Shown here: in pieces, positions 153 to 43,228 of the stretch
How positions within the stretch are numbered: the first letter of the stretch is position 1
Layout: every line of letters begins with the position of its first letter
The notes under the pieces: generated by a model
The model's input: only the letters and a program-made list of their open reading frames with translations
What the model was told of the DNA's origin: nothing
Database searches by the model: none
Made by a program: the position numbers and the translations under genes
Source: a virus
UHGV virus genome: UHGV-1351982
DNA length: 64,000 nt
Reading direction: 5' to 3' (one strand)

Positions 153-179
153 ATATACATAAATTGATGAGAGACAAAA

Positions 180-1308: not shown

Positions 1309-1317
1309 TAAACCAAG

Positions 1318-1342: not shown

Positions 1343-1347
1343 AACTT

Positions 1348-4144: not shown

Positions 4145-4147
4145 AAC

Positions 4148-6180: not shown

Positions 6181-6184
6181 TAAT

Positions 6185-6218
6185 AAACCCCAGTGGATTT
6201 CCACTGGGGTTTTCTTTT
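6185..6218. terminator. bidirectional terminator hairpin (CCCCAGTGG-ATTT-CCACTGGGG, A-run before and T-run after)
   Basis: Perfect 9-bp stem between convergent genes ending at 6180 and 6217. Confidence 0.65.
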
Positions 6219-7853: not shown

Positions 7854-7858
7854 TATAA

Positions 7859-30923: not shown

Positions 30924-31026
30924 TGGAAGTAGTAATTATTGCTTTACTAGTTGTGGTACTTATCGGGCAGTGCATCTTAGACAACCACTTAGCTCGTATC
31001 GAACGTAAGCTGCGGGGAGACAAATA

Positions 31027-31221
31027 ATGGATTGGTTAGGACTTATTACACTTGTAGTATGGCTTGTCTGGATTGTTGGATATATGACTTCACATCGTAA
31101 CCGTATACAGCGGCTAGAGGATAAAGTCACCCAGCTTAATATTAATATGGATAAGTTACTGGACTCCCAACGTAATGATCGGGCACGTATTCACCAACTT
31201 GAGAGGGAATTAGATGTTTAG
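31027..31221 (+). CDS. small membrane protein
   Basis: 64 aa with N-terminal TM helix LGLITLVVWLVWIVGY. Confidence 0.4.
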   Translation: MDWLGLITLVVWLVWIVGYMTSHRNRIQRLEDKVTQLNINMDKLLDSQRNDRARIHQLERELDV

Positions 31222-31441
31222 CTTTGTAGCTATCTTCATTATCGGGGTGCTTGCGGGAATCTTCGGAACACTCGGGGCTATTAACAAGCATCGTGAATAC
31301 GTTGCGGGAGTATCGCGGGAGCTTTCGGAAAGGGAGCGGAAGTTTGCGGAGAAACGTGCGGAGTTTGAGCGAGAGTGGTCGGATGGATCTCGGGCGTCGC
31401 AGAGGAGGTTTCGGGCTGATTCCGTGAGTTCTCCTAAGTAG
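31214..31441 (+). CDS. small membrane protein
   Basis: 75 aa with N-terminal TM helix FSFVAIFIIGVLAGIFGTLGAI. Confidence 0.4.
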   Translation: MFSFVAIFIIGVLAGIFGTLGAINKHREYVAGVSRELSERERKFAEKRAEFEREWSDGSRASQRRFRADSVSSPK

Positions 31442-31599
31442 CGCTAATTTGACTTTTGCCAAATCTCATAAGATTACACATGAAGGTGTGCCCAGAGGTT
31501 CCCTAGATGAGAATGAGTCTCATTACCGCCCCCTTACTTAGCAAGCTAATAGTCACACCATGTTATCATTACACAGTGTGACTATTTTATTTTTAATTG

Positions 31600-32334
31600 T
31601 TAGGCAACTTTTAATTTATCAATGAATTGTTGCGGTGTGGTACTATATTCCGCGCGTTCTTCCTCGGTCATACCTTCCCAACACATTTTTAAACGTTCGG
31701 CTAGGAATTGATAATCGTTATCATCATCAAGCGATTCATCAATAAAGGTTTCACCGATCAATGTTACGCCGATTGATAGGATATCGTTAACGGCTTGAGC
31801 ATCCAGCGTTTTAAATCCAGCACTTGCCGCCGCTGATAATACACCTTTATGATCATCAATCATTGTAAAATCAGCATTAGGATATAGCTGTTTAAACAGT
31901 TCAAAGTAATAAGATTTATATACAGCGTCTTTACTGTGGTATATTTCGCTAACCTTATTTGCATCAAAGTATTTATGTAATGTATCGCGGGAAAATACGC
32001 GAATATTACTATTTCCGCGCCCTCGCAAGCCTTGTTTGCGTAAATAAAAATAATCGCTTTTAGACATTAGGCGCGCGGTACAAATAATATTTAAAGTATT
32101 TGCATCATTCATACATTGGCGCATATATTCAACCAATGGCAATAAAGAATCCTGCATAATTAAATCATGCTTGCAGGCTTCGCGGGAATATTTATTTAAA
32201 TCTAAATTCCCATTATCATCAAAACAAGGCCCGACACGGTGCATTGAGTTAATGATTGTACCGTCTAAATCCCAAATCATAACGCGGGAAATATGCGGGA
32301 AAGTGCGGGTAATATTCATGTTGACTTGATTCAT
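31600..32334 (-). CDS. dmp: 5'-deoxyribonucleotidase (T5 Dmp-like, HAD-family)
   Basis: 244 aa, same length as T5 Dmp; HAD motif I VMIWDLDGTI near N-terminus. Confidence 0.6.
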   Translation of the reverse strand: MNQVNMNITRTFPHISRVMIWDLDGTIINSMHRVGPCFDDNGNLDLNKYSREACKHDLIMQDSLLPLVEYMRQCMNDANTLNIICTARLMSKSDYFYLRKQGLRGRGNSNIRVFSRDTLHKYFDANKVSEIYHSKDAVYKSYYFELFKQLYPNADFTMIDDHKGVLSAAASAGFKTLDAQAVNDILSIGVTLIGETFIDESLDDDNDYQFLAERLKMCWEGMTEEERAEYSTTPQQFIDKLKVA

Positions 32335-32421
32335 TTGTTACATTCTCCATTTAAGGGATTTAGGTTAATTCAATCTTGCCAGCTAATTATATTGGATTAG
32401 CTGGCAATGTTCAATTAACTA

Positions 32422-32814
32422 TTAATTAGTGAGGCCATACGCTAGCGCGTCACCAATAAAGCTAAGATCTTCACCATGTACGCTAGAACGAATCCCCGCG
32501 CAAGTGTAGACCATCGCGCTAGCTTCTGGATTGCAGACCGGACACGGCTTAACAACCGCAAACGCTAGACCGGATTTAAGCGCATCAATAATAATTGTTT
32601 GTACTGTTAAAGTATCAGCGTAAACACCTTTTGCTTTTGTATGGCTTGCCACTTTGCCGGTATCATAAGCAAAGGTAGTAACCTGCAAAACGTCGTTATA
32701 ATTCAGCAAATCGAAATTAACTTGCCCCGCCTCGACGTGATAACGTTCGCCATTAGAATAAACTAGAACGATGGAAGAAGTAGCGCGGTCAAAAGGAATG
32801 CTTTGGTTTTTCAT
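32422..32814 (-). CDS. hypothetical pre-early protein
   Basis: 130-aa ORF between dmp and A1-like gene. Confidence 0.4.
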   Translation of the reverse strand: MKNQSIPFDRATSSIVLVYSNGERYHVEAGQVNFDLLNYNDVLQVTTFAYDTGKVASHTKAKGVYADTLTVQTIIIDALKSGLAFAVVKPCPVCNPEASAMVYTCAGIRSSVHGEDLSFIGDALAYGLTN

Positions 32815-32846
32815 GTTTATGACTCCAGATTATTTAATTACGGGAT

Positions 32847-33125
32847 TTATTGAAAAAATACATTTAAAGATAAATCAGTTTTACGAAAATATGTTTCGTC
32901 GCCGTCTTTCCTTTCTTGATTAAGGTAATCGCCTGTCATTACCTGAATAGAATCTTTTCCGAAAAAGATCATATTTTCGCCAATATTACTATCCCATACG
33001 GCGTACATTCCCGCGTACATTCCACGGGTAACTAAATAAACGCAACTATCAAAAGACATTTCAGACCATGCAATATCTTCTAAACAATTGCTATCAGGGA
33101 TAGATATATTAATTTTACTAGCCAT
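32847..33125 (-). CDS. hypothetical pre-early protein
   Basis: 92-aa ORF. Confidence 0.4.
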   Translation of the reverse strand: MASKINISIPDSNCLEDIAWSEMSFDSCVYLVTRGMYAGMYAVWDSNIGENMIFFGKDSIQVMTGDYLNQERKDGDETYFRKTDLSLNVFFQ

Positions 33126-33177
33126 TTAATAAACCTTTTATTAATGGCGGTATATTTCAACCGCCGATTAAATTTAA

Positions 33178-34842
33178 TTATGCAAAGAATTTACCGTTCT
33201 TAAAGTCAATCAATGTTCTTTGACCGTTTGCATAGGTAATTAAATGCGTTTGCGTCCAGCTTGACGCGCCCACGTTGTAGCCCATATCAAGGGAACCAGC
33301 AACGCCAGCGGTATAAACGCCGCCGTAAATGCTAGCCGTATGAGTATGACCAGTGTTAAGGCGTCCCAACTTTTTAAACTGCTTAGGATTGCCCCGACTG
33401 CCGTTAATGCCATTGTGACCATGTACGCCGCATTCAATGCCAGCGATTTTAAACGACTGGTCAGTAGTCAGGAAAATAGCGTTAAATTCGCAACCTGCGA
33501 CACTACGCAAGGCGTAATCTAGCACGTTAAAAGTATCATCCTTTTCAGCAATAGCGGCGTATATAGCAGCGTTTAGACGGTGATACAATTCCGCGTTTGC
33601 GGGATCGTCTTTAATGTTAGCGTTACGATCATCTAACCAGCGGGATAAAGCTAAATCATGGTTAGATTCAACAATGATTGTTTGAGAGAAATCACGCTCC
33701 ATTGATTCTAATACGCGTCCAGTGTCGATAAGATCATCTAGAACCTTGTCACGTCCTGCGGCGTACTGTTTAGCAAGGAATACACCACTAGCGCGGTTGT
33801 GATGGTTACGCGATGTAAAATCATGCACATCATGAATAAACTGATATTTAGGCTTGAGAATATCAAGCAAGCTGTTTTCACTAGCCCATGAAGCAACGGC
33901 GCATTCATCATCTAATTTTTCGGCGTGAATATCACCATATTGCAAGCCTAGAACATGATCGGACGTTTCAAAACATCCGGTAGGCATAGCGCAAACATTC
34001 AAATCATAAAACATTCCGCTTTCGTCCATCGTTTCAAGCTGACGAACAAAAAATTCGCCGTCGTCGTCAAATTCTACCAGCAAAGCGCCGAAATTATGTA
34101 AAGCCTCGGCCTTTTGTCCTGCCTTTTGCTGGATATAGTTTTTAAGCGTAGCCGTTCCGGTTGAATACATACGGCGCACTACTTCACCTTTTAACGCTGG
34201 CACACTTTCAGCGGTAATTTTAGCGTGACCAATTGCCAGACCTTCAATATTTAAAGCCGTGGCGGTTTCTGCGAATCCTGAAAGCGGATAGTCTGCCGTT
34301 GGTAACACGTTAATTTCAGCCATGAAAGCAAAACGGCGATTATTTAAAAATACGTTTTTCTCGCAAATATATTTATTAAATGCGGGATCGTATTTAATGC
34401 CTTCGTTACCTTCTCCATTCTGGAAGCCGTTTTTATTGTAAATGAATTTACTAACCAGCAATTCACCGCCGATATATTCAGCGAATTTTTCCAGACTTGC
34501 TAAAAAGTTTTTATGCGGGAAAGTATTATTTTGAATCGACGTTAGAATAAAACGGCGACCGGATTTAACTTCCCACTGTTCCACGGTACTAGAAACAATT
34601 CCCGCCGCTTCGGGGCGATCATCATTTTTAATCGCCTTTTCAGCTTTTGCCGCTTTCGGTTTTGCTGGCTTATTTGCTTCCAACCAATCGCAAATTGCGG
34701 TTGAATGTTTCGTTGTATCGTAAACAGCTTTTGATATATCGTCGCAAACTTCCAGCTTAGTAGCGCGTAAACGTTTACCGTAGAAATTAAAATCAGCGGC
34801 AAGTTTAACGATCTGGGCTTGTTTTTCTGCGGAAATATTCAT
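33178..34842 (-). CDS. A1: A1-like pre-early protein with metallophosphatase motifs
   Basis: 554 aa (T5 A1 about 556 aa); calcineurin-like motifs GDIHAE and GHTHTASIYGG; in pre-early region next to dmp. Confidence 0.6.
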   Translation of the reverse strand: MNISAEKQAQIVKLAADFNFYGKRLRATKLEVCDDISKAVYDTTKHSTAICDWLEANKPAKPKAAKAEKAIKNDDRPEAAGIVSSTVEQWEVKSGRRFILTSIQNNTFPHKNFLASLEKFAEYIGGELLVSKFIYNKNGFQNGEGNEGIKYDPAFNKYICEKNVFLNNRRFAFMAEINVLPTADYPLSGFAETATALNIEGLAIGHAKITAESVPALKGEVVRRMYSTGTATLKNYIQQKAGQKAEALHNFGALLVEFDDDGEFFVRQLETMDESGMFYDLNVCAMPTGCFETSDHVLGLQYGDIHAEKLDDECAVASWASENSLLDILKPKYQFIHDVHDFTSRNHHNRASGVFLAKQYAAGRDKVLDDLIDTGRVLESMERDFSQTIIVESNHDLALSRWLDDRNANIKDDPANAELYHRLNAAIYAAIAEKDDTFNVLDYALRSVAGCEFNAIFLTTDQSFKIAGIECGVHGHNGINGSRGNPKQFKKLGRLNTGHTHTASIYGGVYTAGVAGSLDMGYNVGASSWTQTHLITYANGQRTLIDFKNGKFFA

Positions 34843-34951
34843 AACTAATTCAACTCCTATAAAGGGATAAAGATTAAAGCTGGCAATATTGCCAAATATA
34901 ACGCCTTGCCTGAAGTGAGGACAATTTAAAAGGCGTTATAATTTGCAACAT

Positions 34952-35176
34952 TTAATTAATCGGCATTAAACTAGAACAAAAGCCAAATACAATGCCAATT
35001 GTAAGAAAGATAATTGACATATATTTTTGAATGTTCGCGTTTTTGCGGAAATTATTTGCGGCGTAAACGTTATTAATTCCAATTATTGCCAGAATTGACC
35101 GCGTATAATTCAGAATAAAAGCGGCGGCAATAATAAATAAACCTAAAATAAACGCTTCGCTAGGATAAAAGATCAA
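34952..35176 (-). CDS. small membrane protein
   Basis: 74 aa, two hydrophobic helices. Confidence 0.35.
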   Translation of the reverse strand: MIFYPSEAFILGLFIIAAAFILNYTRSILAIIGINNVYAANNFRKNANIQKYMSIIFLTIGIVFGFCSSLMPIN

Positions 35177-35226
35177 GATTATTCTCCTTTAAGGGATAGC
35201 GGGGAATATTCCCCGCTAATTAAAAT

Positions 35227-35643
35227 TTATTCACCTGCGGCCTGTTTTACTTCCTCCGCTACGCCTAACAATTGCGCTACGGCGTCCAGCGTTTCCAGTT
35301 TTGCACTTTCCAGACTTGCCAAATCGTCGGCATCTTTTACAATGCCGCTATCAATGGCATGTTTAGCAATGACGCGCACATAGTGAGCTTTACGGACAGA
35401 GCTACCGCCGCCAACTTTACGCGGTTTATCGCTTTTCTGATAGGCTTTTGCACTGGCCAATTTAGAACGTACAGAAACAGGGGACGCAGCGCCAACGGCG
35501 GCGGCAATTTCTTTTAAGCCGTCACTATTCGCAAACTCAATCCCGCTTTTAGCAACCATTTCAGAGTACATAGAAACAGCTTTTTCGGTGTTTTCTTCGT
35601 TCCAAGAGAATTTTGCGGTTTTTTCGGTTTTAACGTTAGACAT
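35227..35643 (-). CDS. A2-like pre-early protein (putative DNA-binding)
   Basis: 138 aa immediately upstream of A1-like gene; size and position as T5 A2. Confidence 0.4.
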   Translation of the reverse strand: MSNVKTEKTAKFSWNEENTEKAVSMYSEMVAKSGIEFANSDGLKEIAAAVGAASPVSVRSKLASAKAYQKSDKPRKVGGGSSVRKAHYVRVIAKHAIDSGIVKDADDLASLESAKLETLDAVAQLLGVAEEVKQAAGE

Positions 35644-35743
35644 AATTTAATACTCCATTCAATTATTAATTAAGGGATTATGATTAACTAATGTTAATCC
35701 ATATATTCCCCATATTTCAGGGGAATATAAAAGTAACACTAAT

Positions 35744-35995
35744 TTATGCTATAGCTTGCCATTTATCATCTTTCTGAATGATCTTTACAACGTCGCCAGA
35801 TTTAACGCGAACATTATAAATAGGCTTGCTGTTGTTACTGCGTTCCGTTTCCGCATAGACCGCTTCAATCTTATCAAAGGGATCAAGCGCCGCACCTTTG
35901 ATACGTTCGGCTTTTCCGGTTAATTCATCAGTTTTAGTTACAAAAGGAATGAAAACAGATTGACCTACTTTCGGCGCGGTAATAACGTTTTGCAT
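35744..35995 (-). CDS. hypothetical protein
   Basis: 83-aa ORF. Confidence 0.4.
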   Translation of the reverse strand: MQNVITAPKVGQSVFIPFVTKTDELTGKAERIKGAALDPFDKIEAVYAETERSNNSKPIYNVRVKSGDVVKIIQKDDKWQAIA

Positions 35996-36159
35996 TTTTA
36001 ATACTCCGGTTTATTGGGGATTATTCCACAATAGCGCCTCGATACTTTGAAACGCTATTAGATTATAATCCGCTAGGAGTTAGCCTAAACATTACCATTA
36101 TCCAAATTTTTAAAGAGCAGTTACTACGGGGAACATCTTAAAACCTATCGGCTAGCGTG

Positions 36160-36378
36160 TCAAGCGTTTTTTAAACTTTTTTCGATTTGATGTGAGTTAT
36201 ATAAATCAATCATTATATTACGCCACACCATTTCCAGACCTTGCTGCTTACCTTTCTTGTATTGCTTGAATCTGTATTTTACAGATCGTTGCGCTACTGT
36301 CAACAAATTTTTTGTTCTGCTATCCAGTGGGCTAGCAGGTTTTGCACTAATCACTAAAGCGTTTTTTGATTTGATCAT
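36160..36378 (-). CDS. hypothetical basic protein
   Basis: 72-aa basic ORF. Confidence 0.35.
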   Translation of the reverse strand: MIKSKNALVISAKPASPLDSRTKNLLTVAQRSVKYRFKQYKKGKQQGLEMVWRNIMIDLYNSHQIEKSLKNA

Positions 36379-36760
36379 TATCGTCGATTCCTTATAATGT
36401 ATAAGTTTACCGCCGATAGGCTTTAAGATGTTCCCTAGTTTTTAAAGAGCATGGCGGTAAACTTCCCCGCCGTGTAATCTTGCGTTTCGTTTCCGTCCCG
36501 CCGTCCTACGAGATAAATAATAGGGGATTCCCGAAAATGGCGCAACCTTATTTTTGTAAAGAAACGTAAAGAAAACCACTACCCGCACCACGGCAAGCGG
36601 CGCACTAAGTTTAATGAAACAGGCGCGCGAATAACACTAAAACAACCACTTTAGCAAGTAATTTTTTCATTTATATCTGCTCTAGGGTACTTGACAAAAT
36701 CTAAAATCCTCGTGGTGAGGTTTTCTCGGTGTACCCCTTATGATTGCCTATCTTTTCCTT

Positions 36761-36798
36761 TGATGCGCTTAGAATCGCTTACAGAGCGTTTTAGACCC
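36761..36798. repeat. direct repeat copy 1 (TGATGCGCTTAGAATCGCTTACAGAGCGTTTTAGACCC)
   Basis: About 85 percent identical to 40503-40538 by eye. Confidence 0.6.
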
Positions 36799-37010
36799 TG
36801 TTAATAACTTATACAAAAAGCAAAAATGAAATTTAATGAGTTATCCACTTGATTTTTCAAAAAAGTATTTTCTGCTGTTATTTTTCATTGACAAATAAGT
36901 TTAGACGTGCATTGATTGGTTAGCAGACTAACAATCGCTAGGATAATAATCACGCTGGTGGATTGTAACAGCCGAAACAGTTAGCAGACTATTAATACTC
37001 TAAAAACCTA

Positions 37011-37041
37011 TTAGCCAACTAACTATTTCATATTATATAAT
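37011..37041 (+). promoter_or_regulatory. candidate promoter (-10 TATAAT with ATAAATT leader) about 430 nt upstream of the plus-strand cluster
   Basis: TATAATATACTTATAAATT matches the conserved early promoter/leader motif; -35 weak. Confidence 0.35.
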
Positions 37042-37099
37042 ATACTTATAAATTAAAGAGAAATAATAACTATAAGAAACTATCGGCTAAGTGAGAACC

Positions 37100-37222
37100 A
37101 CTATCATTTAGGTTATTCACAAAGTTATCCACAGCACAAAATAACTTGACGCAATAGGCGACGTTTTGGCGACTTATCCACAGACTTATGTACAGGTTAT
37201 CCTACTGTATAAATATACAGGG
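37100..37222. repeat. left copy of about 120-bp imperfect inverted repeat carrying two DnaA boxes (TTATTCACA 37113-37121, TTATCCACA 37125-37133), a third DnaA box (37174-37182) and a LexA-like box (37203-37222)
   Basis: Reverse complement of 40567-40690 aligns by eye; includes an identical 16-mer TTATCCACAGACTTAT. Confidence 0.6.
37203..37222. promoter_or_regulatory. LexA (SOS) box-like palindrome TACTGTATAAATATACAGGG
   Basis: CTGT-N8-ACAG core with AT-rich spacer, close to the E. coli consensus TACTGTATATATATACAGTA. Confidence 0.5.
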
Positions 37223-37469
37223 TAGAATGGTAGCAGTAACAACCGCAATCAAATTTAAGCGGCCTAGAACGCGCTACACGGCGTTTTCTCACTGCTACCC
37301 TTATTATAATAAAGCCTTGTGTACGCTTACAGAGAGCTAGAAATAGAAAACGCGCGGTTATCATAAAAACAGGCAGTAGGCAAGGAATAAAAAACCTTTT
37401 CTTTTTTCTTGCCCATAGTGAACAAATATCTATATCATTCACTCACCGATTAACGAGGGAGGCAAAGAA

Positions 37470-38489
37470 ATGTCTACTGTAAGAATTGCAGTGCCAGCAA
37501 ACGCAACTATTGTTAAAGGTAGTTTGCGCAACCTGCTAGATGGTAGTAGTGCGGCAAGTATTCAGCACACCGCTACTATTGTAGAAAAGATTCACGATGA
37601 AATTTTAGACAATAATGATACTCATTATTCAGTTGATGATTTCACGCTATTACTAGACCAGACAAGGGCGCTAGTAATTTTCAACCGTGATTATCACATT
37701 TTCCGTAATAGTCGGGGAACTGATATTGATTTTATCATTGTTGGTTATAGTGAGTCTCATAGTGGTTACATTGCGCGATTATATAACGTGCAAGAAAAGG
37801 AGCAGGTAACAGCAACAAAAGTAAATAATATCCGGCTGGATAGTGTCGGATCGTTATTAAATAGTATCTGGCGTGAATTATCCTCAAGCTATAAAGGTGC
37901 GGATAGTGACGCAATCGAAACAACTGGCGTATTGTGTTTTGAAAAGTCAACGGGTAACATGTTGATCCCTAGCGATTATTTAGGGTATGGGAATGAATCA
38001 AACGTTGCAAACGCTGGATTTACACTTTTCCCGCTTGACAATGTAACAAAACAGGCTGTAAACTCTCAAACTTCAAGCGCAATTGCGCAAACTACTGAAA
38101 ATAAAGGAAATAACACTATGTCTAAAGTAACCGCTATCGTTGCCGCTAATAAATCCGCCGCCGCTACCGCTGCAAAACTGGAAGCGGGTAAAGTAGCACT
38201 AACTCAGCTTACAAAAGTAGCGGCTAAAGCCCTGCCTTCTGGTATGGCTGGCATGTTCGCTAAACAGTATTTAGATACTCCGGTCGGGCGCGTTGTTGTT
38301 GCCAACTTGTTAAATCTGGCAATCGAACAATACGCACCGAATAACCAGAAAGCGCGAATTGTTGCTAAAGCCGCAATGGATGCCGCAATGCTGGAAGTGG
38401 TACAGAGTTTCAATATTTCTGAAATGATCGACAAGGCAATCGAGGGAATCAACATTGATGCTTTGACTGCTAATATTTCAGAAGAGTAA
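37470..38489 (+). CDS. hypothetical protein (339 aa), first gene of plus-strand pre-early cluster
   Basis: Strong RBS GAGGGAGG before ATG; own terminator hairpin after stop; no recognisable domain. Confidence 0.5.
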   Translation: MSTVRIAVPANATIVKGSLRNLLDGSSAASIQHTATIVEKIHDEILDNNDTHYSVDDFTLLLDQTRALVIFNRDYHIFRNSRGTDIDFIIVGYSESHSGYIARLYNVQEKEQVTATKVNNIRLDSVGSLLNSIWRELSSSYKGADSDAIETTGVLCFEKSTGNMLIPSDYLGYGNESNVANAGFTLFPLDNVTKQAVNSQTSSAIAQTTENKGNNTMSKVTAIVAANKSAAATAAKLEAGKVALTQLTKVAAKALPSGMAGMFAKQYLDTPVGRVVVANLLNLAIEQYAPNNQKARIVAKAAMDAAMLEVVQSFNISEMIDKAIEGINIDALTANISEE

Positions 38490-38498
38490 TAATAACAA

Positions 38499-38525
38499 GC
38501 GGGAATTAATTTTCCCGTTTTCTTC
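38499..38525 (+). terminator. terminator-like hairpin after the 339-aa gene
   Basis: CGGGA-ATTAATTT-TCCCG followed by TTTTCTT. Confidence 0.45.
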
Positions 38526-38547
38526 CCTTTTAGTTAGGAGACTAATT

Positions 38548-39039
38548 ATGTTTGGTAACAGAAATTATGGCAACCCTATTGAAGCACGATCCCTTAATCA
38601 TGACGCAATTGTATTCACTCATGCGTCTACCGGTTATTGTGGATCAGATGGGAATGATTATCATTTCGTTCCCGCTGGTGACGATATTGATGATCTATGT
38701 AATGAGGCAGGTTATGAAAATGCTTGCTCTTATGGTCTAGAAGTTATTGAAGTAGACGACGGCGAATATGAGGATAATGATAATATTGAATGCTCCGCTT
38801 ATCATTATCAGTTAAGTGAATCAGGTTGTTATATTGGCGGCGGCGATCCTATTAATTCCATCACTGAAATAATTATTGAAAATGGTGGCGTTTCGCTGAA
38901 TGGTAACAAGGCGTTACTATATGCAAACCGATTAAAGCAACTTGTATATATTCCTGATGGGAAAGAATGGGAAGAATACAACGTTCTAATTGCAGAATTG
39001 AAAAGCTGTTTCGGCGTGGAAGTGGTAGAAATAGTCTAA
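38548..39039 (+). CDS. strongly acidic hypothetical protein (163 aa)
   Basis: RBS TTAGGAGA; Asp/Glu make up over one fifth of residues with very few Lys/Arg, several Cys. Confidence 0.5.
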   Translation: MFGNRNYGNPIEARSLNHDAIVFTHASTGYCGSDGNDYHFVPAGDDIDDLCNEAGYENACSYGLEVIEVDDGEYEDNDNIECSAYHYQLSESGCYIGGGDPINSITEIIIENGGVSLNGNKALLYANRLKQLVYIPDGKEWEEYNVLIAELKSCFGVEVVEIV

Positions 39040-39054
39040 TGTAAAGTTTTGTAA

Positions 39055-39081
39055 AGGTCGCCCTAATCGGCGGCCTTTTTT
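39055..39081 (+). terminator. rho-independent terminator (GGTCGCC-CTAATC-GGCGGCC then TTTTTT)
   Basis: GC stem plus T6 immediately after the stop at 39039. Confidence 0.6.
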
Positions 39082-39146
39082 GTTATAATGCCTTTACACC
39101 GAAACGGTGGATTGAAAATTTTCCCTGATTTCTAGGAGGCGTTAAA

Positions 39147-39377
39147 ATGGTTGCTTTCTCTTCTTCTGACTCCCTTTTCACTGGTAAAGGTTGGGTATCT
39201 AATCGCTGGATCATTGATCAAATGGTTTCGGAATTTGGGATTGGTAAAACTTATGTTACCATTCAGGCGCTTTATGATAATGACAAGATTGACCAGCAAA
39301 CCGCCGGATTTTTGCTGGATACGCTGAAAGCGGAACATTGCACTAAAAAGCAAGCGGCAAAAATTGTTTTAATGTAA
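39147..39377 (+). CDS. hypothetical protein (76 aa)
   Basis: RBS CTAGGAGG; followed by hairpin GGGGCG-TTACTTTC-GCCCC. Confidence 0.45.
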   Translation: MVAFSSSDSLFTGKGWVSNRWIIDQMVSEFGIGKTYVTIQALYDNDKIDQQTAGFLLDTLKAEHCTKKQAAKIVLM

Positions 39378-39424
39378 TTAATAACGGGGCGTTACTTTCG
39401 CCCCTCATTCCCTTACTAGGAGTT

Positions 39425-39643
39425 ATGCAAATGTTAAAGAATGTTTCCCTTGCCCGTTCTAAAGGTTTTAAGCTGGTGGATGTTAACACCTTCGAGCGTC
39501 CAGATTGTAAAATCGAATATGTAGCACGCAACAAAAACCCTTTCCGTGTTACAGAAAAGAAATTTGACAAGCGCGGCAATTTGATAGCCGAAACGGTTAA
39601 ACACTTTGCTACTTTTTACGCTGCTTTTCGTGGGGTATTATGA
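39425..39643 (+). CDS. hypothetical basic protein (72 aa)
   Basis: RBS CTAGGAG; possible 33-aa hydrophobic ORF (39642-39743) overlapping its stop. Confidence 0.45.
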   Translation: MQMLKNVSLARSKGFKLVDVNTFERPDCKIEYVARNKNPFRVTEKKFDKRGNLIAETVKHFATFYAAFRGVL

Positions 39644-39752
39644 GATCCTTATATATTGCTCTAGCGTTTGCTACTGTTGGCGTTGTATGCTCATTCGCCG
39701 CATTTGTTTTAAAAATGTACATGATATTTTCCCAGCTTTAGGAGGTTGACAA

Positions 39753-40100
39753 ATGGTAATTTATGAGGGCAATCGTTTTGTTGCTAATTGCCGTCCGGCA
39801 TTGTTAGCAAACTATTTAAATCAGCTTTCACCAGTTTATAAAGGCGTGGTTAATATCTATGAAGGCAAAGCACATTATAAAATTTCTGCCGTTGTCGCTC
39901 GCGAGCTTGCCTTTCAGTTTCTTACTTTTAACTCATGCGATATTCAGGTTATGGGTGAGCCATTAGTCGCAGAAAATGAAAATGAATTTATTGACATTTT
40001 CCGCAAAGTATGTACAGAGCGCCTGATTATGAAGGGCGCGTATATTCAATCAACCGCTGAAAGTATTGAAACAGCGTTTCGAAAAATTGTAAATGAATAG
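39753..40100 (+). CDS. hypothetical protein (115 aa)
   Basis: RBS TTAGGAGG 8 nt before ATG. Confidence 0.45.
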   Translation: MVIYEGNRFVANCRPALLANYLNQLSPVYKGVVNIYEGKAHYKISAVVARELAFQFLTFNSCDIQVMGEPLVAENENEFIDIFRKVCTERLIMKGAYIQSTAESIETAFRKIVNE

Positions 40101-40226
40101 CTGGTGGCGAAAAACACAAAGCCATAAATCTAATAATACCGCTGGGAAACATTCCCAGCGTTTACGATTTGGTAATGGCTGCGTAATGATATTGATAATC
40201 ATCCTCATTCTAGGAGCGATGGCGTT

Positions 40227-40421
40227 ATGAGTGATAAAATTGTTGTAACTAAAACTACTGTTACCGTTGATACTTTCTTTGTGCCTGATACGCTGGAAAA
40301 TCGGCAATTAGTCGAGCGTGGCGATTATGACAAAGTGATATATGATGGGGATGGATACTATCAACATTTGGTAGACTCCTACGGCGAAAGCGAAAAGATC
40401 ACACATCGACTACCAGACTAA
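40227..40421 (+). CDS. hypothetical acidic protein (64 aa)
   Basis: RBS CTAGGAGC; terminator follows. Confidence 0.4.
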   Translation: MSDKIVVTKTTVTVDTFFVPDTLENRQLVERGDYDKVIYDGDGYYQHLVDSYGESEKITHRLPD

Positions 40422-40427
40422 TAATAA

Positions 40428-40457
40428 CGGGGCGCAACTATCGGCCCCGTCTTTTCT
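40428..40457 (+). terminator. rho-independent terminator (CGGGGCG-CAACTATC-GGCCCCG then TCTTTTCT)
   Basis: Strong GC hairpin and T-rich tail after last gene of plus-strand cluster. Confidence 0.6.
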
Positions 40458-40502
40458 GGCCTTCCTCAAATTTCCCCTTATTAAAATACCTCTTCCAAAA
40501 AT

Positions 40503-40538
40503 AAACGCGTTAGAATGCGTTACAGAGCGTTTTAGAGC
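40503..40538. repeat. direct repeat copy 2 (AAACGCGTTAGAATGCGTTACAGAGCGTTTTAGAGC)
   Basis: Matches 36761-36798. Confidence 0.6.
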
Positions 40539-40566
40539 TATATTAGAGTTATTCACTACGCAGGAA

Positions 40567-40586
40567 TACTGTATAAATATACAGTA
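40567..40586. promoter_or_regulatory. near-consensus LexA (SOS) box TACTGTATAAATATACAGTA
   Basis: Perfect palindrome TACTGTAT/ATACAGTA, 19 of 20 matches to the E. coli LexA consensus. Confidence 0.55.
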
Positions 40587-40690
40587 GAATAATCTGTTGA
40601 TAAGTCTGTGGATAACGCCTCAAAATCGCTAGGATTTTGTCAAGTCAAATCGTGCTGTTAATAAACCTGTGGATAACTTAAATAACAGTG
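40567..40690. repeat. right (inverted) copy of the about 120-bp repeat with LexA box (40567-40586) and two DnaA boxes TGTGGATAA (40607-40615, 40668-40676)
   Basis: Reverse complement aligns with 37100-37222. Confidence 0.6.
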
Positions 40691-40708
40691 TTTCTCACTT
40701 CGCTTTGT

Positions 40709-40852
40709 AAATGCGAGTCATTCTCATTATCATTCGCGTTTCCCTTCCTAAATGCAAATCATTCTCATTCGTATTCCGGTAGTCAAATGATAACTATTCT
40801 CATTCGCATTCAACTTCTCAAATGCGAATCAATCTCATTATCATTCGCATTT
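40709..40852. repeat. four tandem copies of a palindromic unit (AATGCGA..TTCTCATT..CATTCGC)
   Basis: Units at about 40709, 40750, 40785 and 40820; last unit has perfect 10-bp arms AAATGCGAAT/ATTCGCATTT. Confidence 0.6.
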
Positions 40853-40889
40853 CGGCAGGCAGGGCATTTTCTATTTGCCCTGCGCTTTT

Positions 40890-41489
40890 GTGCAAATCCG
40901 ACATTTGCCCCCACGGATTACGTGCCAGCGTGTATGTGCGAATCCGACAATTTTTGGTAGTGTGCAAATCCGACCCGAAATATTTTTATAGTGTGCGAAT
41001 CCGACAATGAATTTCCCTAAAAACTCCAGCAATCTCGAACTGCGATCGAATCCTGTGGGATATGCGCAAATCCGACATGAGTTTGCTAGGAGACAGATTT
41101 ATGGTTTCAGGAATATTTTTGTGACTTCGATGAGAGGGTGTGTAATTGTGTGAGTTTGGGGAGAAGTGCGAATCCGATGAGGTTTTGGGAGGAACTATGA
41201 GAGGAGCAGCGGTGTTGGTGCTTTAGCACCGATTTGCTGCGTTTTTGGGGATAATGTGAGATGTTTTGGGATAATTGGGCGTGGGGTGAGATAAAGTGAA
41301 ATTTTATTAGTTAAATGGGGCAAAATCGCTTGACAAGTGAAAATTCCTGTGTCCCTAAAAACTCAGGCAATCATGGGCCTTCGGCCCGAAATAATGCTGC
41401 TATTTTCAGGAGATTATGTGCTCATGAAAACTTAGGCAATTGTGCAAATCCGACCAGTTTTTAAACTTATATCAGTGTGCAAATCCGAT
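40890..41489. repeat. iteron-like array: 8 direct copies of GTGC(A/G)AATCCGA(C/T), all in one orientation, irregular spacing
   Basis: Copies at 40890, 40936, 40962, 40993, 41064 (variant GCGCAAATCCGAC), 41166, 41442, 41477. Confidence 0.7.
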
Positions 41490-42025
41490 AGCAATTTCCA
41501 GAAATGTGTTTTCAAAAAATGTTGTCTAGAAATAACCGCCCTCCCCATAACCGCCCTGTATTAACCGCCTATTGCTGGAGTTTCTAGGAACATGAAAACC
41601 GCCTGAGTTAATGGGAGTTTTCCTAGAAACTTAGGAGTCTAGAAGAAAGTGTTGTGCCATCCTAGCAGATGAGCGGCAACAGGTGTATCATCTTGAACGT
41701 TAATTTATCTATTTAACAGTATTAGTTTTTATATAAGTATAAGATCCCCAAGGGTTCTCATATAGAGCTTTGCCCCCGCCAGAAGGTCTCGTGATGTTTC
41801 TAGTAATCTTTATTAAATTACTTGTTGACTTGTCCTGTCGCTCCGTAACCTACGCTACAAGTCAGTAATTTAAGATTCCTGAACCACCACACCTTCTGTG
41901 TGGCAACTCTAAATGGTTAATTCTATTAACTCATAGAGTTATGATAACATACATTTAGCTATCTGTCAACGAGAGTTTGTATCTGAGTCTCGGTACAGGT
42001 ATTGTGCACCGAGACATGCAGGATC

Positions 42026-42913
42026 TTACAGTAACTCTTGGTATGCTTTTTGGTACGCCTCAGTGTTAGTAGGTGTATCTTTTGCAATAGTTATTAATTC
42101 ATCTGTGATCTGAATATTCGTATTATAACGTGAGTGGAACTCGTCAGGAATTTCTAGATACCTATTGATGAATGCTGCAGCAAGCGGTGAAGCTATACCC
42201 ATTTCTAGAACCCATCCAACTTGTTTCTCAAACTTCAAATAAGGAGATTCTGTTTGAATAGTAGAAGTTTTGGTTTCCTTGATTTCTTTTATTGGTAGGA
42301 TTGGATTTTCATAACGTGCTTCTTCAGGGATAGCAGATCTACGTTCTTTATAAATATAAGTCTCTAGATCCGATGCTTTAGACCCTGAATATACTGCAAA
42401 GACACTTGCTTTACCTTGTGATGCTCTAATTGGTAAATAGCAATTTGGATAACTTCTCAATGCATCGTGGAAAGGGCTTCCAGAATATTGATAACGCTCT
42501 CCATATAAATCATCAATGTTCATTCGTTCATCTTCGAAGATATGGAATGCACTAAATGAAGGTAGTGTGAAATATTCTGTTTCTAGCGCGCGAATTAAGA
42601 ATCGATGAGCATATGCACTAATCTTAATAACTGTGTAGGGTTTTTCTCCTTCTTTGAGAGCGTTACCCTTAGATGTAACTTGATAACGTTTTCCGAAGAA
42701 CTCTACTAAACGCTTCTCGTTTAAAGAGAGTGTAGAGTATAAACGTCCGTTCAGTCCTAGCAAGGTATCAAACATAAATGCTAGCTTATCTTTTTCTTCT
42801 TGGGTTAGTTCAGGAAATGGTAGGATCTTAGCATTTGGAATGTTATTTGTTTCCTTTGCCTTTCCTTTGCCAGCATTTTGTCTCAGTTTGTCTTTAAAAT
42901 TATAAGTACCCAT
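42026..42913 (-). CDS. hypothetical early protein (295 aa)
   Basis: ORF with coding-like composition; last gene of minus-strand early block. Confidence 0.5.
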   Translation of the reverse strand: MGTYNFKDKLRQNAGKGKAKETNNIPNAKILPFPELTQEEKDKLAFMFDTLLGLNGRLYSTLSLNEKRLVEFFGKRYQVTSKGNALKEGEKPYTVIKISAYAHRFLIRALETEYFTLPSFSAFHIFEDERMNIDDLYGERYQYSGSPFHDALRSYPNCYLPIRASQGKASVFAVYSGSKASDLETYIYKERRSAIPEEARYENPILPIKEIKETKTSTIQTESPYLKFEKQVGWVLEMGIASPLAAAFINRYLEIPDEFHSRYNTNIQITDELITIAKDTPTNTEAYQKAYQELL

Positions 42914-42982
42914 TGTATTTCCTTTTTAAGGTCAGATGACCTGCTTTTTATTTTAAAGCCTCCGTAGAGGCTTTTGTGTTAG

Positions 42983-43228
42983 CTACTTTTTGCGTGGTAT
43001 TACATCCACACATACTAGACCTAGTTGTTTAACAAGATCTGCTAAATAACAATGATGCAAGATTGCTTCTTTTGGTATTTTACTTACTAACTCAATAATA
43101 GTGCGTAGATCTTGTTGGTTAGCAAAGAAAACATGTCTGATTTCTTCTTTTAAATAAATACCAAACGTATCTGTATTAATAAGTTTTATACTAAAGTCTT
43201 CATGTTCATAAGAGAGCAGTGTATCCAT
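42983..43228 (-). CDS. hypothetical protein (81 aa)
   Basis: ORF, start overlaps upstream gene stop. Confidence 0.4.
   Translation of the reverse strand: MDTLLSYEHEDFSIKLINTDTFGIYLKEEIRHVFFANQQDLRTIIELVSKIPKEAILHHCYLADLVKQLGLVCVDVIPRKK

What the first reader, a model, noticed from the sequence alone, without database searches (positions are those of the whole stretch)
36841..40676. Cluster of DnaA boxes flanking the plus-strand cluster
Four exact TTATCCACA 9-mers (37125, 37174 and, reverse-complemented, 40607, 40668) plus TTATTCACA (37113) and TTATCCACT (36841) occur within about 3.8 kb, all inside or next to the inverted repeats. The expected number of exact matches in 64 kb is below one. 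DnaA boxes have been reported near the injection-stop region of T5, so this fits the family, but their function is unresolved (origin-like element, DnaA titration, transcriptional roadblock or injection pause).
Basis: partly seen in the sequence, partly recalled or inferred. Interest (0 to 1): 0.45.

Follow-up and report, generated by a model that had tools for sequence, protein, structure and literature searches.

The report
Known T5-type DnaA-box inverted repeats
The clustered DnaA boxes are real, but they are the already-described inverted repeats that bracket part of the first-injected DNA of T5-like phages, next to the still-unexplained injection stop. Each copy also carries a near-perfect LexA (SOS) operator that I could not find mentioned in the searchable literature.

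Summary
Four exact TTATCCACA 9-mers lie at the stated coordinates, against 0.72 expected in 64 kb; four within 3.55 kb has a Poisson P of about 1e-7.

The window is a T5-like phage (Epseptimavirus, about 95% identical to NG_S8, EH3 and Stitch). The boxes lie in its terminal repeat, inside a 135–144-nt inverted repeat (37087–37230 and 40559–40702). This is the IRC-spacer-IRD / IRD'-spacer-IRC' pair annotated in T5. Davison (bioRxiv 10.1101/866236) describes it as eight DnaA or DnaA-like boxes in four pairs, each pair separated by 3 bp.

- **Specificity.** In 41 related loci, 165 exact boxes lie in the arms and 1 lies in 656 kb outside them.
- **Box variation.** Variation falls mostly on the degenerate consensus positions 3 and 5, plus position 6.
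- **Position.** The right arm sits a fairly constant 0.47–0.83 kb from the repeat boundary, while the arm-to-arm distance ranges from 1.6 to 4.0 kb.
- **Reach.** Vibrio and Pectobacterium relatives keep the same design.
- **LexA site.** Each arm ends in a near-consensus LexA operator (T5 "palindrome D").

Function is unproven. The most likely reading is host-protein landing pads tied to the injection pause.

The parts
31490..41353 (.). Terminal repeat of the phage (pre-early, first-step-transfer DNA); boundaries are approximate
   Evidence: Window 31490 aligns to position 1 of Salmonella phage Stitch. Several complete-genome contigs end at window 41351-41355. The Stitch repeat is annotated 1-9982 and the T5 repeat 1-10139.
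36841..36849 (+). TTATCCACT, a one-mismatch DnaA-like box outside the inverted repeat
   Evidence: Its 19-mer context is exact in only 3 fetched loci and matches with 2 mismatches in 12 more. This is weak evidence that it belongs to the system.
36990..37085 (.). Very AT-rich tract (GC 12-18%) abutting the outer end of the left arm
   Evidence: It contains no GATC and no 13-mer repeats. It carries a promoter-like match TAGCCA-18-TATAAT at 37012-37041.
37087..37230 (+). Left arm, equivalent to T5 IRC-spacer-IRD. Read from the outer end inward it contains: outer block AAGTGAGAACCACT 37089-37102; box1 TTATTCACA 37113; box2 TTATCCACA 37125; TTGACG 37146; box3 TTATCCACA 37174; box4 TTATGTACA 37186; box5 TTATCCTAC 37197.
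   Evidence: I1; gap-free alignment to T5 6019-6162; 121.9 bits.
37203..37222 (.). LexA-operator-like palindrome TACTGTATAAATATACAGGG at the inner end of the left arm; it overlaps box5 by 3 nt
   Evidence: Three mismatches to TACTG(TA)5CAGTA with 0 expected. PWM score 22.3 bits, above the median of 20 E. coli SOS boxes. Equivalent to T5 6135-6154.
37470..40421 (+). Rightward pre-early gene block enclosed by the arms: six ORFs (37470-38489, 38548-39039, 39147-39377, 39425-39643, 39753-40100, 40227-40421)
   Evidence: All six match T5-like PHROGs. Only 39425-39643 has a name (phrog_4227, endonuclease nicking abasic sites made by host Ung). The length of this block varies from 1.6 to 4.0 kb among relatives.
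40548..40556 (+). TTATTCACT, a DnaA-like box on the inner side of the right palindrome, pointing toward it
   Evidence: Read from the sequence.
40559..40702 (-). Right arm, equivalent to T5 IRD'-spacer-IRC'. On the minus strand it contains: outer block 40687-40700; box1 TTATCCACA 40668-40676; box2 TTATTAACA 40656-40664; TTGACA 40638-40643; box3 TTATCCACA 40607-40615; box4 TTATCAACA 40595-40603; box5 TTATTCTAC 40584-40592.
   Evidence: 128.1 bits, the best match overall. The homologous stretch is annotated as injection stop signal in AY692264.1.
40567..40586 (.). LexA-operator-like palindrome TACTGTATAAATATACAGTA (T5 'palindrome D') at the inner end of the right arm
   Evidence: One mismatch to the 20-nt LexA consensus. 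PWM score 25.6 bits, above all 20 training SOS boxes; the next best site in the window scores 14.9. Annotated only as 'palindrome D' in T5.
40709..40846 (+). Four direct repeats AAATGCGAATCATTCTCATT... (T5 DRC/DRE type) between the right arm and the stop/nick point
   Evidence: D1, D3. The T5 equivalents lie at 9468-9637.
40878..40885 (+). CCCTGCGC, equivalent to the T5 'major single-stranded nick 1, 7.9%' site, which marks the end of first-step-transfer DNA
   Evidence: The sequence is identical to T5 9661-9668, where the nick is annotated. This position is inferred by homology only.
40879..41490 (+). Seven or more direct repeats with core GTGCAAATCCGAC (T5 DRD type) that straddle the terminal-repeat boundary
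   Evidence: D2, D4, D5. The core TGCAAATCC also recurs near the right-hand box cluster in Vibrio and Pectobacterium relatives.

Best explanation
These are the two copies of the conserved inverted repeat of T5-like phage terminal repeats, called IRC-spacer-IRD and IRD'-spacer-IRC' in T5.

**What each arm is.** Each arm is a compact landing pad for host DNA-binding proteins. It carries four or five head-to-tail DnaA boxes, arranged as 3-bp-spaced pairs 61 bp apart, with consensus boxes next to weaker ones. All boxes point toward the enclosed gene block. At the inner end sits a near-consensus LexA operator.

**What is shown here.**
- The identity of the repeats.
- Their extreme specificity and conservation.
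- A pattern of variation that fits the DnaA and LexA recognition rules.
- The fixed position of the right arm relative to the repeat boundary.

**What is inferred.** Because DnaA and LexA are already present in the uninfected cell, they would occupy these sites as soon as the first-transferred DNA enters. The resulting nucleoprotein complex on the right arm lies about 180-330 bp inside the 7.9% stop/nick point. [quoted passage not shown] This is Davison's model, in which membrane-associated DnaA holds the boxes. The left arm, which enters in the opposite orientation, would be an accessory or weaker copy.

**Confidence by layer.** Identity of the element: about 0.97. Genuine selection for DnaA (and LexA) binding: about 0.75. 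A role in the injection pause: about 0.35.
For: **Identity**
- The region is 95% identical to T5-like Epseptimavirus genomes.
- The arms align without gaps to the annotated T5 repeats.
- The architecture matches Davison's description of eight boxes in pairs separated by 3 bp.

**Specificity**
- In 41 loci, 165 exact TTATCCACA lie in 11.4 kb of arms and 1 lies in 656 kb of flanks.
- CTGT-N8-ACAG occurs in 72 of 82 arms and 0 times outside them.

**Selection on the sites**
- Left arms resemble left arms of other phages more than the right arm of their own phage, so the duplication is old. Since it happened, box and palindrome columns have kept 93-94% identity between the left and right consensus, against 63% for other columns.
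- Box positions 1, 2, 4, 8 and 9 are nearly invariant.
- Positions 3 (A/T) and 5 (any base) vary as the TTWTNCACA consensus allows. For example, left box3 is TTATCCACA, TTTTACACA or TTTTGCACA.

**A host factor rather than a phage factor**
- Vibrio phages VF16, Noelle and D135 and Pectobacterium phage DU_PP_V keep exact TTATCCACA clusters. In VF16, Noelle and DU_PP_V the two clusters are oppositely oriented.
- They also keep CTGTAT-N4-ATACAG palindromes with variable centres.
- Their A2 proteins are only 38-43% identical to the one encoded here.

**Position**
- The distance from the outer end of the right arm to the repeat boundary is 468-833 nt. The arm-to-arm distance is 1576-4048 nt.
- Davison reports that some T5-like types lack the left arm but never the right arm. 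He also cites a minor first-step band at about 5.8 kb, near the left arm, seen by Rhoades in 1979.
Against: - No binding or genetic experiment exists. Davison's model is explicitly untested, and the mechanism was still described as poorly understood in 2026.
- About half of the right-arm boxes carry C6 to A (TTATCAACA, TTATTAACA) and fall outside the strict consensus. Right box2 matches the consensus in 0 of 30 unique arms. Their affinity for DnaA is unknown.
- A protein bound to DNA that has already entered does not obviously stop further entry.
- The direct repeats between the right arm and the nick (40709-40846) are equally well placed to be the real stop signal.
- The left arm lies 3.4 kb from the stop and needs a separate explanation.
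- LexA has no known membrane association.
- From my own knowledge, not tested here: common recA laboratory strains are T5-sensitive unless fhuA is mutated. If so, LexA cleavage cannot be required for infection.
Confidence: 0.55

Rival explanations
1. The arms insulate or regulate transcription of the enclosed pre-early block. DnaA and LexA bound at both ends would act as roadblocks or form a DnaA-bridged loop. This would isolate the hypervariable, oppositely transcribed gene block from the strong leftward pre-early promoters on one side and from early-gene read-through on the other. Alternatively it would tune the block to host growth or SOS state.
For: - The arms bracket exactly the rightward block.
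- The boxes in both arms point inward, and this holds in the distant relatives VF16, Noelle and DU_PP_V.
- The left arm lies between the divergent pre-early promoters. The right arm lies about 110 bp past the terminator-like hairpin at 40429-40456.
- LexA operators are classically repressor sites.
- From my own knowledge: DnaA-box complexes are known to block RNA polymerase (the asnC/mioC literature).
Against: - Neither palindrome overlaps a convincing sigma-70 promoter. Only 9-of-12 matches are found, such as TTATCA-16-TATATT at 40603-40576.
- In T5 the experimentally validated promoter of the block, P11 (taken here to be the annotated T5P4), lies about 180 bp downstream of the left arm.
- This reading does not explain why the right arm keeps a fixed distance to the repeat boundary, nor why some lineages lack the left arm.
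Confidence: 0.2
2. The sites are read by phage proteins, not host proteins. The dimeric DNA-binding protein A2, or the A1-A2 complex, would bind them, for example as the place where A1/A2 acts to restart transfer or to cut. Their resemblance to DnaA and LexA sites would be incidental or mimicry.
For: - A2 is a dimeric DNA-binding protein essential for second-step transfer, and its target is unknown.
- A perfect palindrome suits a dimer.
- The full 16-mer CTGTATA(AA/TT)TATACAG is more invariant within T5-like genera than LexA specificity alone would demand.
Against: - The 9-mer is exactly the high-affinity DnaA R1/R4 box.
- The palindrome scores above the E. coli SOS boxes used for the matrix.
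- Both motifs persist in Vibrio phages whose A2 is only 38-43% identical.
- In D135 and DU_PP_V the palindrome centre changes while CTGTAT/ATACAG is kept, which is the LexA rule.
Confidence: 0.12
3. The arms are conserved homology flanks where the variable gene cassette is exchanged between co-infecting phages, or they are relics of an old mobile or invertible element. In either case the boxes would be a secondary feature.
For: - Inverted repeats flank a block whose content and length vary widely, from 1.6 to 4.0 kb (Davison).
- The central AA/TT of the palindrome flips between phages without intermediates, which suggests palindrome-mediated rearrangement.
Against: - The block encodes no transposase or invertase; all its PHROG hits are T5-type small proteins.
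- No inversion isomers are seen. Left-type and right-type spacers and inner flanks stay on their own side across the close relatives in the 41 genomes or loci examined. Only the divergent L039-L041 left arms have a right-like inner flank.
- Homology flanks alone would not keep box positions 1, 2, 4, 8 and 9 invariant. They would also not confine exact boxes to the arms at 165 against 1.
Confidence: 0.08
4. The arms form a DnaA-dependent replication origin, or a DnaA/LexA titration (decoy) locus in the manner of datA.
For: - A cluster of high-affinity boxes is present.
- A 90-bp tract of 12-18% GC lies next to the left arm.
- Plasmid origins such as P1 oriR carry sets of DnaA boxes at both ends (my own knowledge).
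Against: - Electron microscopy places T5 origins near the genome centre, and the replication genes arrive only with second-step DNA (Davison).
- There is no GATC in 36600-37470 although the window averages 3.9 per kb. There are no 13-mer repeats. The AT-rich tract is absent from the right arm.
- The boxes converge on the block, whereas the terminal R1 and R4 boxes of oriC point outward (my own knowledge).
- Eight boxes and two operators per genome cannot titrate the roughly 1000 copies each of DnaA and LexA in a cell (my own knowledge), and host DNA is destroyed within minutes.
- An IHF consensus occurs once, at 40590-40602, and is not conserved.
Confidence: 0.05

Closest known systems
T5 terminal-repeat inverted repeats IRC-spacer-IRD and IRD'-spacer-IRC', with their DnaA boxes at the injection stop signal (Heusterspreute 1987 and Wang 2005, both as cited by Davison; Davison bioRxiv 10.1101/866236; GenBank AY587007 and AY692264)
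   Same: - Same genomic place.
- Same length and spacing, with a gap-free 144-nt alignment.
- Same four 3-bp-spaced box pairs.
- Same palindrome D, the same flanking DRC/DRD repeats and the same nick motif.
This is the same element in another member of the family.
   Different: - Only box-level detail differs. Here all four left-arm boxes are intact, whereas T5 has lost one through a 2-bp deletion.
- There is no HNH insertion upstream of the left arm.
Bacterial oriC and plasmid origins with DnaA-box sets (E. coli oriC; P1 oriR)
   Same: Clustered, regularly spaced DnaA boxes in which high-affinity sites sit next to weaker sites. In P1 oriR the sets lie at the two ends of a unit (my own knowledge).
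   Different: - No GATC cluster and no 13-mer unwinding element.
- Box spacing is 3 bp rather than 2 bp.
- The arms are 3.3 kb apart and enclose genes.
- T5 origins map elsewhere.
LexA (SOS) operators of Gammaproteobacteria, such as those of recA, sulA, dinD and dinI
   Same: - TACTGTATAAATATACAGTA differs from TACTG(TA)5CAGTA at one position.
- It scores above every box used to build the matrix.
- Variants in relatives keep CTGTAT/ATACAG while the centre varies, for example TACTGTATATCCATACAGCG, which resembles the sulA box.
   Different: - It does not overlap a recognisable promoter.
- It sits in a virulent phage that, from my own knowledge, is not known to respond to SOS.
- LexA binding is untested.
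IS50/Tn5 ends (my own knowledge: a DnaA box in the outside end and a LexA-sensitive transposase promoter nearby, in inverted copies flanking a cassette)
   Same: Inverted copies that each combine DnaA and LexA recognition and bracket a variable gene cassette.
   Different: - No transposase is present.
- The arms are 140 nt long with four or five boxes each.
- There is no sign of mobility or inversion among the close relatives in 41 genomes or loci.
- The DnaA-box-plus-palindrome composite is not a recurrent bacterial design: 15 hits in 596 Gb, close to my rough chance estimate of about 8.

Membership tests
T5-type IRC-IRD / IRD'-IRC' terminal-repeat inverted repeats (DnaA-box arrays associated with the injection stop signal) | Lies in the terminal repeat of a T5-like (Demerecviridae) genome and flanks the rightward-transcribed pre-early block, downstream of dmp-A1-A2 | tested here: met
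   A1 lies at 33178-34842(-), A2 at 35227-35643(-), and the arms flank 37470-40421(+).
T5-type IRC-IRD / IRD'-IRC' terminal-repeat inverted repeats (DnaA-box arrays associated with the injection stop signal) | An imperfect inverted repeat of about 131 nt made of two sub-repeats separated by a spacer of constant length, about 52 bp | tested here: met
   (135 nt, 75% complementary). One search shows a gap-free alignment to T5 6019-6162 and 9322-9465, so the spacing is identical to T5.
T5-type IRC-IRD / IRD'-IRC' terminal-repeat inverted repeats (DnaA-box arrays associated with the injection stop signal) | Eight DnaA or DnaA-like boxes arranged as four pairs separated by 3 bp | tested here: met
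   The pairs are 37113/37125, 37174/37186, 40607/40595 and 40668/40656. The same columns are occupied in 60 unique arms.
T5-type IRC-IRD / IRD'-IRC' terminal-repeat inverted repeats (DnaA-box arrays associated with the injection stop signal) | The right copy lies immediately left of the DRC/DRE and DRD direct repeats and the 7.9% nick, a few hundred bp inside the repeat boundary | tested here: met
   The distance to the boundary is 468-833 nt in 11 genomes and about 650 nt here.
T5-type IRC-IRD / IRD'-IRC' terminal-repeat inverted repeats (DnaA-box arrays associated with the injection stop signal) | Acts in cis to stop first-step DNA transfer | not testable with these tools
   This needs infection experiments. 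It is unproven even for T5.
DnaA-binding site array | 9-mers that match TTWTNCACA, with variation confined to the degenerate positions | tested here: inconclusive
   - Positions 1, 2, 4, 8 and 9 are at least 97% invariant, and positions 3 and 5 vary as allowed.
- Position 6 is A in 64 of 238 boxes.
- Right box2 never matches the consensus.
The result is strong boxes paired with sub-consensus ones.
DnaA-binding site array | Bound by DnaA protein | not testable with these tools
   No footprint or ChIP data were found in the library.
DnaA-dependent replication origin (oriC type) | An AT-rich unwinding element with 13-mer repeats and a GATC cluster next to the boxes | tested here: not met
   An AT-rich tract exists beside the left arm only. 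There are 0 GATC in 871 bp, against a window mean of 3.9 per kb. No 13-mer repeats are visible.
DnaA-dependent replication origin (oriC type) | Replication starts here | not testable with these tools
   According to Davison, electron microscopy places T5 origins near mid-genome.
LexA (SOS) operator | A CTGT-N8-ACAG palindrome with an AT-rich centre, close to TACTG(TA)5CAGTA | tested here: met
   - One and three mismatches to the consensus, with 0 expected.
- 25.6 and 22.3 bits, against 12.9-24.0 for the training boxes.
- Present in 72 of 82 arms and 0 times outside them.
LexA (SOS) operator | Overlaps or abuts a promoter that it represses | tested here: inconclusive
   Only weak promoter-like matches overlap it. 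The validated T5 promoter P11 lies about 180 bp away.
LexA (SOS) operator | Bound by LexA protein | not testable with these tools
   No paper in the library links LexA to T5-like phages.
Transposon or invertible-segment terminal inverted repeats | A recombinase encoded within or beside the element, and inversion or mobility seen among relatives | tested here: not met
   No recombinase among the six ORFs. Left- and right-specific spacers and inner flanks are constant across the close relatives; only L039-L041 deviate.

The most novel reading that the evidence does not exclude
The arms would be bipartite DnaA-plus-LexA landing pads rather than DnaA-box arrays alone. A near-consensus LexA operator abuts and partly overlaps the innermost DnaA box of each arm. 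This pairing is conserved from E. coli and Salmonella phages to Vibrio phages.

If LexA really binds, a strictly virulent phage has hard-wired the host SOS repressor into its first-injected DNA. Two possibilities follow:
- LexA forms part of the protein plug or anchor that pauses genome entry.
- LexA acts as a timer. A1-driven host DNA breakdown could activate RecA and remove LexA at about the time second-step transfer and pre-early shut-off occur.

Either way, the 50-year-old injection-stop problem would gain a second, non-essential and genetically tractable host factor to test. lexA(Def), lexA(Ind-) and recA hosts are viable, unlike dnaA nulls.
Probability: 0.25. Interest if true: 0.65.

Novelty: already known. 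Interest (0 to 1): 0.3.

Why it matters
How T5 stops after injecting 8% of its genome, and how it restarts, has been open since the 1960s. These repeats are the main cis-acting candidate.

The finding itself adds nothing beyond published descriptions. The survey done here sharpens the case that the sites are under selection as host-protein binding sites:
- 165 exact boxes lie inside the arms and 1 lies outside.
- Variation follows the DnaA and LexA recognition rules.
- The design is conserved in Vibrio phages despite a diverged A2.
- The right arm is positionally locked to the repeat boundary.

It also adds LexA as a second candidate host factor. LexA is easy to test genetically.

Tried and rejected
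- **Rfam scan of 31000-43000 at E <= 1.** It returned only a sub-threshold sRNA match at 39044-39096, so there is no known RNA element in the arms.
- **IHF consensus WATCAANNNNTTR.** The window has 7 matches against 5.9 expected. One lies in the right arm (40590-40602) but depends on the TTATCAACA variant of box4, which only 4 of 30 right arms have. I do not count it as a conserved feature.
- **Sigma-70 promoter scan.** It gave 24 hits against 17.3 expected. None is strong in the arms, and the conserved TTGACA in every spacer has no usable -10 at 16-18 nt.
- **Search of 596 Gb of bacterial genomes for TTATCCACA-N(1-30)-CTGTAT-N4-ATACAG.** The 15 hits are close to my rough chance estimate of about 8, so the composite is not a general bacterial module.
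- **Concerted evolution or inversion between the arms.** I reject this for the close relatives. Orthologous arms are more alike than the two arms of one phage, and the flanks never swap. Only the divergent L039-L041 left arms have a right-like inner flank.
- **Davison 2015 (Bacteriophage 5:e1086500).** It could not be retrieved by DOI or by my guessed PMC id. Heusterspreute 1987 is also not held. I therefore cannot exclude that LexA was mentioned in either paper.
- **Loci files for scripts.** For some calls I wrongly thought the fetched loci were unavailable to scripts. They were all stored inside a single file.

Full report
**1. Checking the observation**

A fifth exact copy lies at 48483(-). 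The window has 5 copies against 0.72 expected, and none of 100 dinucleotide-preserving shuffles reaches 5. TTATTCACA at 37113 and TTATCCACT at 36841 are also present.

Four copies within 3552 bp correspond to lambda = 0.04 and P(>=4) of about 1e-7. The degenerate patterns are not clearly enriched over the whole window. TTATNCACA gives 7 against 3.3 expected, and TTWTNCACA gives 9 against 7.8. The signal is therefore a local cluster of near-perfect boxes.

The copy at 48483 lies inside a 194-aa ORF. The orthologous site is the only exact box in 50 kb of the 95%-identical phage NG_S8.

**2. What the region is**

Region 36600-41000 is about 95% identical to Epseptimavirus phages (NG_S8, EH3, NBSal002, Stitch), and 533 phage records match it. 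Synteny with Stitch and T5 shows dmp, A1 (33178-34842, minus strand), A2 (35227-35643, minus strand) and small leftward ORFs. A rightward block of six ORFs follows (37470-40421), then a repeat-rich non-coding stretch. This is the terminal repeat carrying the pre-early, first-step-transfer genes. By alignment it spans about 31490-41353 in the window.

The four exact boxes and TTATTCACA lie in a 135-nt inverted repeat, 37086-37220 / 40569-40703, which is 75% complementary. The two arms align without a single gap to T5 6019-6162 and 9322-9465. In GenBank AY587007 these stretches are annotated as inverted repeats C and D and D' and C', with 'palindrome D' at the inner end of the right copy. In another T5 record the homologous stretch is annotated 'injection stop signal'.

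Read in full, each arm holds two 3-bp-spaced pairs of boxes, 61 bp apart:
- Left arm: 37113 and 37125, then 37174 and 37186.
- Right arm, minus strand: 40668 and 40656, then 40607 and 40595.
- A fifth, weaker box follows after 2 bp in each arm, at 37197 and 40584.

This is exactly the arrangement Davison describes for 25 T5-like phages. He reports eight DnaA or 'DnaA*' boxes, in pairs separated by 3 bp, one pair in each of IRC, IRD, IRD' and IRC', with a constant spacer. Davison credits the first report of DnaA boxes here to a 1987 paper. The finding is therefore a correct rediscovery of a documented feature.

**3. Evidence gathered here that bears on function**

I built a sequence-only model of the arm. 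It recovered both arms in every one of 40 IMG/VR T5-like loci, and also in T5 and Stitch. This gave 30 unique left arms and 30 unique right arms.

(a) *No concerted evolution.* Left arms resemble the left arms of other phages more than the right arm of their own phage. The duplication is therefore old, and whatever is still shared between left and right arms is constrained. The left and right consensus sequences are 93-94% identical in box and palindrome columns, against 63% elsewhere.

(b) *Variation within boxes.* Positions 1, 2, 4, 8 and 9 are nearly invariant. Position 3 toggles between A and T and position 5 takes any base, as the TTWTNCACA consensus allows. For example, left box3 is TTATCCACA, TTTTACACA or TTTTGCACA. 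However, position 6 is A in 64 of 238 boxes, and right box2 never fits the strict consensus. The picture is of strong boxes flanked by sub-consensus partners. From my own knowledge of oriC, that arrangement is typical of cooperative DnaA loading, but the affinities here are unknown.

(c) *Specificity.* Across 41 loci, 165 exact boxes lie in 11.4 kb of arms and 1 lies in 656 kb of flanking DNA.

(d) *Position.* The arm-to-arm distance ranges from 1576 to 4048 nt. The outer end of the right arm stays 468-833 nt from the repeat boundary in 11 genomes whose ends are known. In the window the right arm ends about 180 bp before CCCTGCGC (40878-40885), the equivalent of the annotated 7.9% nick in T5. 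It ends about 650 bp before the repeat boundary.

(e) *Reach.* Vibrio phages VF16, Noelle and D135 and Pectobacterium phage DU_PP_V keep two clusters of exact TTATCCACA flanking the inverted gene block. In VF16, Noelle and DU_PP_V the boxes point inward; in D135 the orientations are mixed. Their A1 proteins are 31-69% identical and the two Vibrio A2 proteins compared are 38-43% identical to those encoded here. Unchanged motifs alongside strongly diverged phage proteins argue that a host factor of conserved specificity reads them.

**4. A near-consensus LexA operator at the inner end of each arm**

This is the observation I did not expect.

- The right arm carries TACTGTATAAATATACAGTA (40567-40586), one mismatch from TACTG(TA)5CAGTA.
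- The left arm carries TACTGTATAAATATACAGGG (37203-37222), three mismatches from it.
- No match at three or fewer mismatches occurs in any shuffle.
- I built a weight matrix from 20 E. coli SOS boxes recalled from memory, so it is approximate. It scores the two sites at 25.6 and 22.3 bits. The training boxes score 12.9-24.0, and the next best site in the window scores 14.9.
- CTGT-N8-ACAG is present in 72 of 82 arms and nowhere else in 656 kb.
- In distant relatives the flanks CTGTAT and ATACAG persist while the centre varies. D135 has TACTGTATATCCATACAGCG and DU_PP_V has TACTGTATGCCTATACAGGT. That is the LexA recognition rule.
- The central AA/TT flips between phages with no AT/TA intermediate, as expected for a dyad-symmetric site.
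- The palindrome overlaps box5 by 3 nt. On the right it is also faced from the inner side by TTATTCACT at 40548.

T5 annotates this sequence only as 'palindrome D'. Davison's preprint never mentions LexA, SOS or promoters. Three full-text searches found no paper that links LexA to T5-like phages. The 1987 paper and Davison's 2015 review are not held, so prior mention cannot be excluded.

**5. Mechanism**

*What is shown.* The identity of the repeats, their specificity and conservation, a variation pattern that follows the recognition rules, and the positional coupling of the right arm to the repeat boundary.

*What is inferred.* DnaA and LexA pre-exist in the cell. They would therefore load on the arms as soon as these enter, before any phage protein is made.

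*Best-supported role.* The right-arm complex is part of the injection stop signal. In Davison's model, membrane-associated DnaA holds the boxes and A1/A2 later relieve the block. Three points support this:
- The geometry fits. The right arm is the last conserved block to enter before the stop.
- Some lineages lack the left arm, but none lacks the right arm.
- Davison cites a minor first-step band at about 5.8 kb, near the left arm.

*Points against.*
- Nothing has been tested experimentally.
- The DRC repeats between the right arm and the nick are equally good candidates for the stop signal.
- It is unclear how a protein bound to DNA that has already entered would stop the rest.
- LexA is not membrane-bound.
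- From my own knowledge, recA laboratory strains are T5-sensitive, so LexA cleavage cannot be essential.

*My probabilities.* Injection pause about 0.35. Transcriptional insulation or regulation of the enclosed block about 0.2. Recognition by phage A2 or A1 instead of host proteins about 0.12. Cassette-exchange flanks or a relic of a mobile element about 0.08. Origin or titration locus about 0.05.

*Evidence bearing on the rivals.*
- The origin reading fails its membership test. There is no GATC in 871 bp and there are no 13-mers. An AT-rich tract lies beside the left arm only, and T5 origins are mapped mid-genome.
- The mobile-element reading fails as well. There is no recombinase in the block, and no inversion isomers appear among the close relatives in 41 genomes or loci.
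- The arms are not at the known promoters. The validated T5 promoter P11, taken here to be the annotated T5P4, lies about 180 bp downstream of the left arm. The right arm follows the terminator of the block.
- The DnaA-box-plus-LexA-palindrome composite is not a general bacterial design. A scan of 596 Gb found 15 hits, close to my rough chance estimate of about 8.

**6. Verdict**

The feature is already known, down to the pairwise box architecture, and it is annotated in public T5 records.

Interest is modest. The underlying biological question is old and genuinely open, but the finding does not move it forward. The LexA operator, and the quantitative case for host-factor selection, are the only additions. 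They are computational leads that need footprinting and infection assays in DnaA-depleted and lexA or recA mutant hosts.

Noticed in passing
window 37203-37222 and 40567-40586; T5 L042 6135-6154 and 9330-9349; VF16 L043 7030-7049 and 9523-9542: A near-consensus LexA (SOS) operator sits at the inner end of each DnaA-box arm, scoring 25.6 and 22.3 bits against 12.9-24.0 for E. coli SOS boxes. It is present in 72 of 82 arms and absent from 656 kb of flanks, and it is conserved in Vibrio and Pectobacterium relatives. T5 annotates it only as 'palindrome D'. No paper in the library links LexA to T5-like phages.
   Followed up: partly
window 36771-36795 and 40512-40536; Stitch L001 5402-5426; VF16 L043 9495-9519; Noelle L046 3980-4004: A 25-nt non-coding motif, TAGAATCGC(N)TACAGAGCGTTTTAG, is identical (0 mismatches) between a Salmonella phage and a Vibrio phage. 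It lies next to the palindrome region. In the window there is one copy left of the left arm and one just inside the right arm. Its function is unknown. It may correspond to the T5 IRB/IRB' repeats.
   Followed up: partly
alignment A3, columns of the palindrome centre (window 37212-37213 and 40576-40577): The central dinucleotide of the palindrome is either AA or TT, with no AT or TA intermediate. Among right arms (9-bp palindrome arms) there are 15 AA against 10 TT unique sequences. Among left arms (7-bp arms) TT is rare. This looks like repeated inversion of the palindrome centre, or indifference of a dyad-symmetric binder to it.
   Followed up: partly
window 40879-41490; VF16 L043 5528-6790; DU_PP_V L044 1269-1425; Noelle L046 153-168: The direct repeats with core GTGCAAATCC(GAC) straddle the terminal-repeat boundary. 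Their core recurs near the right-hand box cluster in Vibrio and Pectobacterium relatives. They could be a recognition element for formation of the repeat boundary, for packaging, or for A2.
   Followed up: no
window 36600-37470: There is no GATC in this 871-bp non-coding region, although the window averages 3.9 GATC per kb. Both arms also lack GATC.
   Followed up: no
window 31490 and about 41353: The window runs straight from late-region DNA into position 1 of the terminal repeat, and out of the repeat into early genes. The source record is therefore a permuted assembly, or one in which the two repeat copies are collapsed into a single copy.
   Followed up: partly
L058 (RZZU01000077.1, a 3015-nt contig labelled Clostridia bacterium MAG), 382-416(+) and 2741-2787(-): This short contig binned as Clostridia carries two inverted copies of the DnaA-box-plus-palindrome composite about 2.3 kb apart. 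That is the T5-like arm arrangement, so it is probably a mis-binned fragment of a T5-like phage.
   Followed up: no
window 48483-48491: This is the only exact DnaA box outside the arms. It lies inside a 194-aa minus-strand ORF, and the box is conserved at the orthologous site in NG_S8 (7578). It is probably coding sequence that happens to match.
   Followed up: partly
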